Of a DNA stretch of 64,000 nt, positions 32,862 through 35,771 are shown piece by piece. The position numbers were made by a program, and so were the translations under genes. This DNA comes from Promethearchaeia archaeon (GTDB taxonomy: Archaea; Asgardarchaeota; Lokiarchaeia; Sigyniarchaeales; SOKP01). A model generated the notes under the pieces. It was given only the letters and a program-made list of their open reading frames with translations. It was not told the DNA's origin and made no database searches. How positions within the stretch are numbered: the first letter of the stretch is position 1; each line of letters starts with the position of its first letter. Location: positions 1 through 64,000 of the forward strand of contig JAHQWK010000012.1 of NCBI GenBank assembly GCA_029856145.1. Direction: 5' to 3'.

Positions 32862-33200
32862 CTAAAAGAAATGCGTAGAATCAAATCTATAAGCTGCTCT
32901 TGTTAGCCCGACATAGTTATCATTAAGTTTATACAGCATTTTTCCATTTATAATTTTTTTCTGCAGATAATTGTTTTTAATATAATGATTCAACGATGAT
33001 ATCATCGTGCCCAAAGTGACAGCTCCGATAAATTCATGTCGCTTTTTTGTAGCTCTTATCAATTCTAGTTCAGAATGCCATTGCCCATCAAGAAGTGCTA
33101 TCAATATTTCATTTTTTATAGGAGTATTGATATCTTTAATTTTATTGAATAAATTAGAATAACTTGGCTTATAGTGCGGATTTTCTTCAAAATCTTCCAT
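32862..33200 (-). CDS. Winged-helix-like small protein
   Basis: EILIALLDG..SELELIR...helix...LQKK..NGKMLYKL wing pattern. Confidence 0.55.
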   Translation of the reverse strand: MEDFEENPHYKPSYSNLFNKIKDINTPIKNEILIALLDGQWHSELELIRATKKRHEFIGAVTLGTMISSLNHYIKNNYLQKKIINGKMLYKLNDNYVGLTRAAYRFDSTHFF

Positions 33201-33320: not shown

Positions 33321-34442
33321 TTATAGTAAATTTGGTGGTATTCCTTCATTATAATACTTCACCCGCGTAATCCAATTCTGAGAAAATTCTGGAATGGTAC
33401 CAAGTATAGAGCCACCCACCCACACAGAAAATGTTCTCTCCATCGGAGCGATAATTCTGATTCCTAGATTTTTTTTCTTTCTCCTTGCTAATTCTAATTC
33501 TAATTCTTGATAAATACGCGATTTTATATTAGGGAACATTGAGGATCCTCCTGAAAGAAAAATATTATTCAATAAATCTGGACGAATATCTAAATCACAT
33601 GCATCTATAACGTCCATAATGGCTACATGTAACGAATCTTCTTCCAACTCTGAAGATGGTTTAAATAATAATTCTGGTACCATAAATCGTTCTTTATTAA
33701 GTGAGATAGTTGAACCATCAGGCAAAGAGTATTCTTTCTCATATTGCTCAATACGTTTCAGATCTTCATTATAATCTAATGAGACAAAACAAGCTTTCTC
33801 CTTTAATGCCCTTACTAATTCTCTACGAATTGAAGAATCAACAGACCATCCAATGGATTCTAAAGTCTGTTCCATATAACGAGTTAATACTCTTCCACCT
33901 ATGTCTAAAATCCGTACTGCATGTTCTAACTTATATCCTTCATAGATCGGGACAATTCTTGTATTACTATCTCCAATCTCTACAATCAAACCTGTTTGAA
34001 ATCCTCCAGAGTAAAGAGTTAACATAGAATCTAAGACAGGATAAAATGCCATACATTGATATCGTTCTAAAAACAATTCAAAAATTTTCTCTAAATCTTT
34101 ATATGGAAATAAAGGATGTACCGCAAATAGTACATTAACAAGCGTTGGGTCTACTCTTAAGTTATAAAAGATATAATCAATAATATTTGCTAAATGGTTC
34201 CAATCTACGACAATTCCCTTTTCAATTGGATGAAAAATTTTATACAATCCAATTGATTGAATTTCGTCTCCTACATATATTTCATCTTCACGAGACTCTT
34301 TGCCCCCATAATTGACACCAACATCTTGATATTTAGGTTTTCCAACCATTGTAAGGAATACTTGGGAGGGTGTATCTTCACCCGCGAATCCAATTTTTGT
34401 TGAAAATTGACCGATATCAAGAACAACTGTAAGATTTCCCAT
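33321..34442 (-). CDS. Divergent actin-family (Arp-like) protein
   Basis: KIGFAGED.P, YVGDE, PIE.G...DW, VPIYEGY, GGR.LT, KEKACFV, YSLPDG, ERF..PE.LF.P, CDLDIR.DL..NI.LSGGSSMFP, SVWVGGSIL. Confidence 0.95.
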   Translation of the reverse strand: MGNLTVVLDIGQFSTKIGFAGEDTPSQVFLTMVGKPKYQDVGVNYGGKESREDEIYVGDEIQSIGLYKIFHPIEKGIVVDWNHLANIIDYIFYNLRVDPTLVNVLFAVHPLFPYKDLEKIFELFLERYQCMAFYPVLDSMLTLYSGGFQTGLIVEIGDSNTRIVPIYEGYKLEHAVRILDIGGRVLTRYMEQTLESIGWSVDSSIRRELVRALKEKACFVSLDYNEDLKRIEQYEKEYSLPDGSTISLNKERFMVPELLFKPSSELEEDSLHVAIMDVIDACDLDIRPDLLNNIFLSGGSSMFPNIKSRIYQELELELARRKKKNLGIRIIAPMERTFSVWVGGSILGTIPEFSQNWITRVKYYNEGIPPNLL

Positions 34443-34567: not shown

Positions 34568-35233
34568 TTATTCTCCTCTCATGATTTTCTTCAGACGATT
34601 TAGCTCATCCAACATCTCATCTCGAAGAGAACCTAAGCCTCCACCAACTTTTGGAGCTACTGAGGGTGCTGCTGGAGCTGGAGGTCCAGGTCTTTTTGCA
34701 AATGCCGGTGCTGCTGGAGGTCCTGCACTTGGAGGGCCACTAGGTGCTTTAGGAGGTCCACCGCCAGCAGGAGGTAATTTCGGAGCTGGAGGTAAATTAG
34801 GTTTTTTGGGAGGTCCGCCACCACTTGGTGCAGTAGGTGGGCCTGCTTTCTTAGGAGGACCCGCACCGGGAGGTTTAGGTGCAGAAGGAGGTCCCCTGCC
34901 AGGAGGTGCAGGAGCTGCTGGGACGGTAGCTGTTGGTGCTGCTGTTGGTGCTGCGGCAGGACTTCCACTACTTAATAAAGAGAATAAGGTACTTGCTGCT
35001 GCGGTTTTAGCTTCACCACCTGTTGGGGCAACAATTTTTTTAGAGGAAGTACTCACAGTTTGAACATCTTCAACAACAGAAACTTCCTTCAAATCTTTCT
35101 GAGCTTTAGCCAATGATTTAATAAAGTCGTTTATTCCTTTTACAGTATCTCCTAAATCATCTGCTAAAGAAGTTAAACCTTTTTTCATAAAATTAATTAC
35201 TCGTTCAATCTTTTTCTGTTCTTTTGAAACCAT
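34568..35233 (-). CDS. Coiled-coil + proline-rich + C-terminal amphipathic helix (WH2/VASP-like) protein
   Basis: Heptad-like N-terminus, about 110-aa Pro/Gly/Ala tract, C-terminal GGGLGSLRDEMLDELNRLKKIMRGE; SD GAGGA. Confidence 0.8.
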   Translation of the reverse strand: MVSKEQKKIERVINFMKKGLTSLADDLGDTVKGINDFIKSLAKAQKDLKEVSVVEDVQTVSTSSKKIVAPTGGEAKTAAASTLFSLLSSGSPAAAPTAAPTATVPAAPAPPGRGPPSAPKPPGAGPPKKAGPPTAPSGGGPPKKPNLPPAPKLPPAGGGPPKAPSGPPSAGPPAAPAFAKRPGPPAPAAPSVAPKVGGGLGSLRDEMLDELNRLKKIMRGE

Positions 35234-35495: not shown

Positions 35496-35771
35496 TTGCA
35501 TAAAATGCCTAAGCGAGAACTATTCATTAAGCGGGTTTATGAAATAGTAAATGAGCTTAAAATTCCCCTAATCGATGAAAGAGTCTATGATAGTGTTAAA
35601 TTCAGTACGGGGGCAGCTGTAGCAGCGGTTATTTTCAGATTTGAGGAGGATGAATCAGTAATACGTGGATTTCTGGGTCTTGCTGAATACTTTCACACAG
35701 TAGTGATAAAGAGAAAGGATGAGTTCTATATTCCCCACGCTTCCATTCTCTTCAGACTTATAAGTGCTTAG
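35496..35771 (+). CDS. Small hypothetical protein
   Basis: Clean globular-looking ORF; likely start ATG 35505. Confidence 0.7.
   Translation: MHKMPKRELFIKRVYEIVNELKIPLIDERVYDSVKFSTGAAVAAVIFRFEEDESVIRGFLGLAEYFHTVVIKRKDEFYIPHASILFRLISA

What the first reader, a model, noticed from the sequence alone, without database searches (positions are those of the whole stretch)
33321..34442. Actin paralog with rewired nucleotide site and filament interfaces
By-eye alignment to actin: P1 loop DNGSG->DIGQF, H73->K, TEAPLNP->AVHPLFP, catalytic Q137->D, D154->E, G158->S, H161->R, hydrophobic plug FIGM->SELE, longer D-loop (YQDVGVNYGGKESRED), basic insert RRKKK, and no HRKCF end. Q137 and H161 are established hydrolysis residues. 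Inference: not the conserved filament-forming Lokiactin but an Arp-like, hydrolysis-impaired seed, cap or scaffold subunit.
Basis: partly seen in the sequence, partly recalled or inferred. Interest (0 to 1): 0.7.

Follow-up and report, generated by a model that had tools for sequence, protein, structure and literature searches.

The report
Catalytically dead Asgard actin-related protein
This gene encodes a real, conserved side-branch actin of Loki-type Asgard archaea that has lost actin's ATP-splitting and several filament-building residues; its cousin is already listed in the literature as an untested actin-related protein, and it may act as a rare seed or cap for the cell's main actin filaments.

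Summary
Observation confirmed: an intact 373-aa actin-fold gene (minus strand) with every listed substitution. It is one of four actin homologues in a Lokiarchaeia genome and only 40% identical to the genome's own Lokiactin. It is the ortholog of Ca. Lokiarchaeum ossiferum UYP44126.1, already catalogued as an Asgard ARP (PMC9834061) but never characterised.

The clade has 100/100 support, dN/dS about 0.04, and was found only in two families of one order. H161R is invariant; Q137 is always lost (D, G, S or E); H73, E107, R177 and G158 are lost; ATP/Mg-binding residues are kept. This fits a lost catalytic switch, not a rewired one.

Filament donor contacts M44, R62, A204 and E205 are lost; acceptor residues mostly remain, but the cleft is remodelled. 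The plug, longer D-loop, RRKKK and D154E are not clade-wide or not diagnostic. The upstream proline-rich gene is adjacent in one family only.

Best guess: a low-abundance, non-self-polymerising ARP that seeds or caps Lokiactin pointed ends (0.4); rival: monomeric scaffold (0.3). Nothing biochemical is shown. The scan noted the same substitutions before in other genomes.

The parts
33321..34442 (-). Asgard actin-related protein gene, 373 aa (ortholog of L. ossiferum UYP44126.1)
34395..34418 (-). Phosphate-1 loop, residues 9-16 (D11, G13, K18 kept; S14>Q, G15>F)
34278..34334 (-). D-loop, residues 37-55: base (P38, K39, Y40, hydrophobic 43) kept, tip hypervariable, M44 lost, length 16-23 across the clade
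34251..34256 (-). K61/R62 equivalents S63-I64; R62 is R/K in all 30 Lokiactins, aliphatic in the clade
34218..34220 (-). Sensor loop H73>K75 (variable in the clade)
34116..34121 (-). Pro-rich loop E107-A108>V108-H109
34029..34031 (-). Catalytic Q137>D138 (D, G, S or E in orthologs)
33996..34013 (-). Clade signature YSGGF(Q), residues 144-149: Y143 kept, S145G, R147F, T148Q; remodelled barbed-end cleft
33957..33980 (-). Phosphate-2 loop, residues 155-162, ending in invariant H161>R162
33825..33830 (-). A204>I205 and E205>R206, pointed-face subdomain-4 contacts
33636..33665 (-). Hydrophobic-plug region, residues 260-269; G268 lost, one residue shorter in most of the own family
33582..33596 (-). 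D286-x-D288-x-R290 motif kept (residues 283-287)
33468..33506 (-). Helix extension with clade-wide 4-residue insert (P322 lost); basic only in the own family
34568..35233 (-). Upstream co-oriented proline-rich gene (221 aa; N-terminal helix, middle helix, poly-Pro arm, invariant C-terminal helix); neighbour in the own family only, partner status unproven
32862..33200 (-). Downstream co-oriented 112-aa gene of no Pfam/NCBIfam family; syntenic in 77 of 80 own-family loci, not beside the ARP in the sister family

Best explanation
A lineage-specific actin-related protein of one Lokiarchaeia order, kept under purifying selection beside the canonical Lokiactin. Shown from sequence: actin fold, retained adenine/ribose/Mg-phosphate residues, lost hydrolysis and phosphate-release switch, lost donor contacts on the pointed face. 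Inferred: it binds ATP as a structural cofactor, hydrolyses it slowly or not at all, and does not self-polymerise like actin (about 0.75 for this much). Further inferred and speculative: as a rare subunit it offers a barbed face on which Lokiactin subunits dock and then stays at the pointed end, i.e. a stable seed or pointed-end cap, working like Arp2/Arp3 or Arp11 without being one (about 0.4 for the whole statement). An activating partner probably binds the remodelled subdomain 1/3 cleft; the neighbouring proline-rich protein is one unproven candidate.
For: Separate clade, 100/100, stem about 1 change per site, outside Lokiactin; nesting in Lokiarchaeia Lokiactins rejected at p-AU 0.003 and 0.002 on an L-INS-i alignment. 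Kept in both families: D11, G13, K18, G156, G182, R210, K213, E214, G301, G302. Lost: S14, G15, H73, E107, A108, Q137, G158, H161, R177. Q137, H161 and A108 govern hydrolysis (PMC10062479); Arp4 with a similarly altered site uses ATP structurally (PMC3510490). Of the long-pitch contacts listed in bioRxiv 10.1101/309534, donors M44, R62, E205 (100% conserved in 30 Lokiactins) are replaced by D/G/S, I/L and R/Q, plus A204>I/V, while acceptors L142, Y143, I165, Y169, D286, D288, R290 are kept. D-loop length floats from 16 to 23 versus a fixed 19 in Lokiactin. dN/dS 0.026-0.065; intact in 86 of 93 own-family genomes and found in all 10 sister-family genomes examined. The L. ossiferum ortholog is transcribed severalfold below Lokiactin (PMC9834061) and is not among the roughly 2,000 most abundant proteome rows held (bioRxiv 10.1101/2025.11.30.690169 Table S2), which fits a sub-stoichiometric role. 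Gelsolins and a weak profilin match exist in the genome.
Against: The pointed/barbed asymmetry is only partial. Donors P38, K39, V43, I64, T202, D244 are kept, and acceptors T148 (lines the M44 pocket), F375 and partly E167 are lost, with R147F, A170K and T351E/D added, so a Lokiactin D-loop may not fit. D-x-D-x-R is also kept in Arp1 and Arp2 rows and, from my own knowledge, in non-polymerising nuclear Arps, so it is weakly diagnostic. The ortholog (GNAMCCOK_00418 by my mapping) is not among the stored Lokiactin co-IP rows, log2 ratio +10 to -1.06, with 841 rows cut; weak, because abundance is low. Loss of Q137 lowers hydrolysis but does not by itself stop filament formation (Q137A filaments are described). 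Gene neighbours differ between lineages. No biochemical data exist.
Confidence: 0.4

Rival explanations
1. Monomeric, ATP-locked scaffold subunit of a complex unrelated to Lokiactin filament ends (works like nuclear Arp4), binding a partner helix in its remodelled barbed cleft.
For: Clade-specific invariant residues cluster at the hinge helix and cleft (S141T, S145G, R147F, S350P, H161R), a sign of selection for a new partner. Both filament faces are damaged. Not in the stored Lokiactin co-IP rows. Arp4 precedent.
Against: No candidate complex identified; neighbours vary (proline-rich gene, 112-aa gene, PIG-L deacetylase, small GTPase). Only a 4-residue insert, unlike the long blocking insertions of Arp8. 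P38/K39/Y40, D244 (with the LPD motif) and the W-loop aromatic stay conserved.
Confidence: 0.3
2. It forms its own slow, stable filament or co-polymerises sparsely into Lokiactin filaments, with compensating interface changes and possibly an alternative Asp/Arg catalytic pair.
For: Full-length actin fold without large insertions; about half of the long-pitch contact residues kept; R161 invariant and D137 in 98% of the own family. Bacterial actins use an acidic residue at this position (own knowledge).
Against: Position 137 is G or S in most of the sister family; the D-loop tip is unconstrained in sequence and length; within the same genome pairs it is 49-68% identical where Lokiactin is 88-97%, unlike a self-polymerising actin; low expression.
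Confidence: 0.15
3. A decoy or buffer that binds profilins/gelsolins through an actin-like cleft and tunes free regulator levels.
For: Y143, Y169, I345, L346, F352 kept; gelsolins and a weak profilin match in the genome.
Against: A buffer should be abundant; the ortholog is not. The C-terminal residues that profilin contacts (own knowledge) are missing, and E167 is variable.
Confidence: 0.07
4. A true archaeal ortholog of eukaryotic Arp2, a remnant of a proto-Arp2/3 nucleator.
For: One AU test did not reject an ARP+Arp2 clade (p=0.625; the constrained tree scored higher than the free one), and ARP+Zn-ribbon ARP+Arp2 was not rejected (p=0.13, 0.18).
Against: On a better alignment ARP+Arp2 alone is rejected (p=0.018, 0.009); both are long branches; Arp2 keeps Q137 and H161; found only in two Lokiarchaeia families, not in the other Asgard genomes searched.
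Confidence: 0.03

Closest known systems
Ca. Lokiarchaeum ossiferum UYP44126.1 (NEF87_000411), one of three Asgard ARPs in Rodrigues-Oliveira et al. (PMC9834061)
   Same: Same clade (100/100), 50% identity, 373 aa, shared S14Q, G15F, R62 loss, YSGGF signature, H161R, 4-residue insert.
   Different: It has G at 137, D154 but no D157, a 16-residue D-loop and a non-basic insert; it sits beside a small GTPase, about 272 kb from the proline-rich gene. Function untested in both.
Lokiactin (e.g. UYP47028.1; this genome's C7 gene)
   Same: Actin fold, adenine/ribose/Mg residues, K39/Y40 at the D-loop base.
   Different: 40% identity; Lokiactin keeps Q137, H161, H73, M44, R/K62, E205, is pan-Asgard, highly expressed and filament-forming.
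Zinc-ribbon-insert Asgard ARP (UYP44711.1 type; this genome's C24 gene)
   Same: Likely sister clade (99/83, weaker with more taxa); also lost Q137; insertion at the same 316-330 site.
   Different: Keeps R62, has lost D288/R290 and partly D286, carries a double zinc ribbon; 32% identity.
Eukaryotic Arp2/Arp3 and dynactin Arp11
   Same: Proposed mode of action only: a non-self-polymerising actin paralog that stays at a filament's pointed end.
   Different: Arp2 keeps Q137/H161; no orthology shown; ARPC2/ARPC4 not found in 21 genomes searched (no positive control). Arp3 and Arp11 were not sampled.
Nuclear Arp4
   Same: Altered P1/P2 loops and loss of Q137/H161, with ATP probably structural (PMC3510490).
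   Different: No large insertions, no HSA-domain match in the genome, no chromatin-remodeller context.

Membership tests
Actin family (PF00022) | Profile score above cut-off and actin fold | tested here: met
   301 bits vs cut-off 27; TM about 0.88 to solved actins
Lokiactin | Falls within the pan-Asgard conserved actin clade | tested here: not met
   Outside in all free trees; nesting rejected (p 0.002-0.003), though not (p 0.187)
Lokiactin | Retains Q137, H161, H73, M44, R/K62, E205 | tested here: not met
   All 100% in 30 Lokiactins, all lost in the clade
Lokiactin | Forms two-stranded filaments in cells | not testable with these tools
   Needs purified protein or cryo-ET
Asgard ARP clade of UYP44126.1 | Monophyly with UYP44126.1 | tested here: met
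   L150 = UYP44126.1 by exact look-up and primer match; clade 100/100
Asgard ARP clade of UYP44126.1 | Shared signature residues (YSGGF, H161R, 4-residue insert) | tested here: met
Arp2 (Arp2/3 complex) | Orthology (clade with Arp2) | tested here: inconclusive
   Never in free trees; AU p=0.625 vs 0.018/0.009; long branches; only near-identical Arp2 rows sampled
Arp2 (Arp2/3 complex) | Retained Q137/H161 hydrolysis pair | tested here: not met
Arp2 (Arp2/3 complex) | ARPC2/ARPC4 partner subunits in the genome | tested here: inconclusive
   Not found in 21 genomes searched; no positive control rang
Arp3 / Arp11 | Orthology | not tested
   No such sequences were returned by the session's searches
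Arp1 (dynactin) | Clade with Arp1 and actin-like active site | tested here: not met
Nuclear Arp4-type | Degenerate catalytic site with kept nucleotide pocket | tested here: met
   against PMC3510490; a resemblance, not orthology
Nuclear Arp4-type | HSA-domain remodeller partner | tested here: inconclusive
   No PF07529 match in own genome (97% complete); no positive control

The most novel reading that the evidence does not exclude
An independently evolved archaeal nucleator: the hydrolysis-dead ARP templates Lokiactin filaments from its barbed face and stays as a pointed-end cap, perhaps switched on by the helix-bearing proline-rich protein. This would be a convergent analogue of Arp2/3 plus a WASP-type factor in Asgard archaea.
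Probability: 0.15. Interest if true: 0.85.

Novelty: new member of a known kind. Interest (0 to 1): 0.4.

Why it matters
Asgard archaea crawl on a dynamic Lokiactin cytoskeleton, yet the regulators characterised so far are mainly profilins and gelsolins, and the papers I found name no dedicated ARP-type nucleator or pointed-end cap. Every L. ossiferum ARP is uncharacterised. This analysis narrows one of them to a testable hypothesis (ATP bound but not turned over, pointed-face donors lost, cleft remodelled) in a clade with a cultured host. If it seeds or caps Lokiactin, actin paralogs were specialised into filament-end machinery in archaea independently of Arp2/3. If not, it is one more catalogued divergent Asgard ARP.

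Tried and rejected
Complex prediction of the ARP with residues 172-221 of the proline-rich protein: no answer (score 0.00; no support and no evidence against).

RNA search: no RNA holder listed; four runs marked 'RNA? probably DNA'. Their contigs cover the proline-rich and 91-aa genes, leave the ARP almost uncovered and none bridges the two genes; this says nothing about expression.

Rejected: 'rewired Asp/Arg catalytic pair' as a clade feature, because 137 is D/G/S/E. Rejected: plug, longer D-loop, RRKKK and D154E as defining features. Rejected: the proline-rich gene as an obligate operon partner; it lies 44-272 kb away in sister-family genomes and exists in Lokiarchaeia where this ARP was not found.

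Atlas, Pfam and NCBIfam searches named neither the proline-rich, the 112-aa nor the 91-aa protein. Sigma-70 promoter scan is uninformative for an archaeon. Fold search cannot separate actin from Arps. Deep tree placement depends on alignment and taxon set; constrained trees came from short searches. ARPC2, ARPC4 and HSA searches rang nowhere, controls included. Paper searches found no biochemical or structural study of this paralog; Stairs and Ettema 2020 was not read.

Full report
Observation. The stretch 33321-34442 is an intact minus-strand ORF of 373 aa. It scores 301 bits on Pfam Actin, and its AlphaFold2 model (pLDDT 82.8) matches solved actins at TM about 0.88.

Context. The genome (3.55 Mb, 97% complete) has four actin homologues: a canonical Lokiactin on C7, this gene, a 506-aa ARP with a double zinc ribbon, and a 398-aa divergent ARP. 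The query is 40% identical to its own Lokiactin and 42% to eukaryotic actin, whereas Lokiactin is 60% identical to eukaryotic actin. Related loci come from Promethearchaeota records.

Identity. Orthologs are intact in 86 of 93 genomes of the own family; six of the seven exceptions also lack the upstream gene, which suggests assembly gaps. They occur in all 10 sister-family genomes examined. Two sister-family orthologs not used in the clade profile score 527 and 540 bits, while nothing in 18 genomes from outside the two families exceeds 378 bits; top outside hits are Lokiactins in the tree. So it was not found outside these two families in the genomes searched. The ortholog in the 6.04-Mb genome G257 is UYP44126.1 of Ca. 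Lokiarchaeum ossiferum, by exact look-up and by the paper's qPCR primers. PMC9834061 lists it as one of three Asgard ARPs, transcribed severalfold below Lokiactin. The kind is therefore known; the function is not.

Phylogeny. The orthologs form one clade (100/100) on a stem of about one change per site, outside the Lokiactin clade (95/83) and outside eukaryotic actin, Arp1 and Arp2. The zinc-ribbon ARP is its sister at 99/83. Support falls to about 85/74 when more divergent Asgard ARPs are added (the printed labels are shifted one node by re-rooting, and I read them accordingly). AU tests disagree by alignment. With the automatic alignment neither ARP+Lokiarchaeia Lokiactin (p=0.187) nor ARP+Arp2 (p=0.625) was rejected. 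With L-INS-i and stricter trimming both were rejected under LG+F+G4 and LG+C20 (0.003/0.002 and 0.018/0.009), while ARP+zinc-ribbon ARP+Arp2 was not (0.13/0.18). Conclusion: not a Lokiactin; deep placement unresolved. Arp3 and Arp4-11 were not sampled.

Selection. dN/dS against nine orthologs is 0.026-0.065. In the same five genome pairs the ARP is 49-68% identical while Lokiactin is 88-97%. It is a maintained gene under looser constraint than a polymer-forming actin.

Nucleotide site (197 own-family, 7 sister-family, 30 Lokiactin sequences). Kept: D11, G13, K18, G156, G182, R210, K213, E214, G301, G302. Lost in both families: S14 (Q), G15 (F/Y), H73, E107, A108 (H/N), Q137, G158 (S/A), H161, R177. 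H161R is invariant. Position 137 is D in the own family but G, S or E elsewhere. D154E is typical of the own family; the sister family mostly keeps D154 and loses D157. Q137, H161 and A108 control hydrolysis in actin (PMC10062479), and Arp4, with a similarly changed site, uses ATP structurally (PMC3510490). Inference: nucleotide is probably still bound and the hydrolysis/phosphate-release switch is lost. A new catalytic Asp-Arg pair is unlikely as a clade trait. Several unrelated divergent Asgard ARPs also have R at 161.

Filament faces. I scored the long-pitch contacts given in bioRxiv 10.1101/309534. Donor (pointed) face: M44, R62 and E205, each fully conserved in Lokiactin, become D/G/S, I/L and R/Q; A204 becomes I/V; D-loop length ranges 16-23 versus a fixed 19. 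P38, K39, V43, I64, T202 and D244 are kept. Acceptor (barbed) face: L142, Y143, I165, Y169, D286, D288, R290 are kept; T148 and F375 are lost, E167 is variable, and R147F, S145G, S141T, S350P are new clade invariants. The donor losses are more radical, but the asymmetry is partial, and the cleft looks re-specialised rather than simply preserved. The 4-residue helix extension is clade-wide, its basic charge is not.

Neighbours. In 80 own-family loci a proline-rich gene lies upstream in 72 (53 of 56 with at least 3 kb of flank), a 112-aa gene downstream in 77, and a PIG-L deacetylase in 38. In the sister family the proline-rich gene is 44-272 kb away, and most ARPs follow a Ras-type small GTPase. 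The proline-rich gene also occurs in Lokiarchaeia where this ARP was not found, usually beside a 91-aa gene. So gene order does not establish an ARP-nucleation-factor module. This agrees with earlier follow-ups in the scan, which I checked here.

Published proteomics. In Table S2 of bioRxiv 10.1101/2025.11.30.690169 the ortholog maps to GNAMCCOK_00418 (accession offset, anchored by the mass of gene 00420). It is absent from the stored rows: about the 2,000 most abundant proteins, and co-IP rows with ratios from +10 to -1.06; the rest of both sheets was cut. The proline-rich ortholog, most likely 00620, is also absent from the stored rows. This fits low abundance and gives no support for Lokiactin association.

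Mechanism. Shown: fold, conservation pattern, range, orthology. Inferred with fair confidence (about 0.75): ATP-binding, hydrolysis-impaired, not self-polymerising. Inferred with low confidence: a rare pointed-end seed or cap for Lokiactin (0.4 overall), against a monomeric scaffold with a dedicated cleft-binding partner (0.3), a slow own or mixed polymer (0.15), a regulator decoy (0.07) and a true Arp2 ortholog (0.03).

Verdict. A real, well-conserved but already catalogued type of Asgard ARP; new member of a known kind. The residue-level reading makes it testable in a cultured relative. Interest 0.4; 0.85 if it proves to be an archaeal nucleator (probability about 0.15).

Noticed in passing
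window 34568-35233 (-): Proline-rich protein found across Lokiarchaeia (127 of 138 genomes had a match, some weak): N-terminal amphipathic helix, a middle helix, poly-Pro arm and an invariant C-terminal helix ending in LKKI. No Pfam family. Single copy here.
   Followed up: partly
window 35496-35771 (+): 91-aa protein of no known family; the most constant neighbour of the proline-rich gene across the class (L125, L131, L133, L134, L137, L140), in varying orientation. The Atlas gives only its own cluster.
   Followed up: partly
window 32862-33200 (-): 112-aa protein downstream of the ARP in 77 of 80 loci, convergent with a type IA topoisomerase; looks winged-helix-like by eye only. In two sister-family genomes the match lies inside longer frames (349 and 806 aa).
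   Followed up: partly
L003:1477-2997 (G000 C24): 506-aa ARP with a double zinc ribbon inserted at the 316-330 site. It shows roughly the mirror pattern: keeps R62 but has lost D288/R290 and partly D286. The two paralogs could be complementary end-binding subunits; untested.
   Followed up: partly
L086:3545-5681, L150:2809-4089 (sister family): The ARP follows a Ras-type small GTPase and a divergent 452-494-aa protein with a C-terminal zinc ribbon. In L. ossiferum the GTPase (GNAMCCOK_00419) is abundant and the larger protein (00420) is marginally enriched in the Lokiactin co-IP (log2 1.01, adjusted p 0.047).
   Followed up: partly
L015, L085:7114-7866, L092:7162-7908: A PIG-L family deacetylase lies directly upstream of the ARP in many own-family loci and in one sister-family genome, so it may be the older neighbour; it is not next to the ARP in this window.
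   Followed up: partly
L151/L163 (G235 C2) and L233/L236 (G028 C391): Actin-like genes whose first ~56-62 residues lie in a long separate frame (1,647-1,667 aa) about 3-4 kb from the rest: possibly split or interrupted by an insertion.
   Followed up: no
L216/L219 (G185 C66), L213/L218 (G002), L175, L176: Other Asgard genomes carry tandem or fused divergent actins (tandem pair; 700-860-aa fusions).
   Followed up: no
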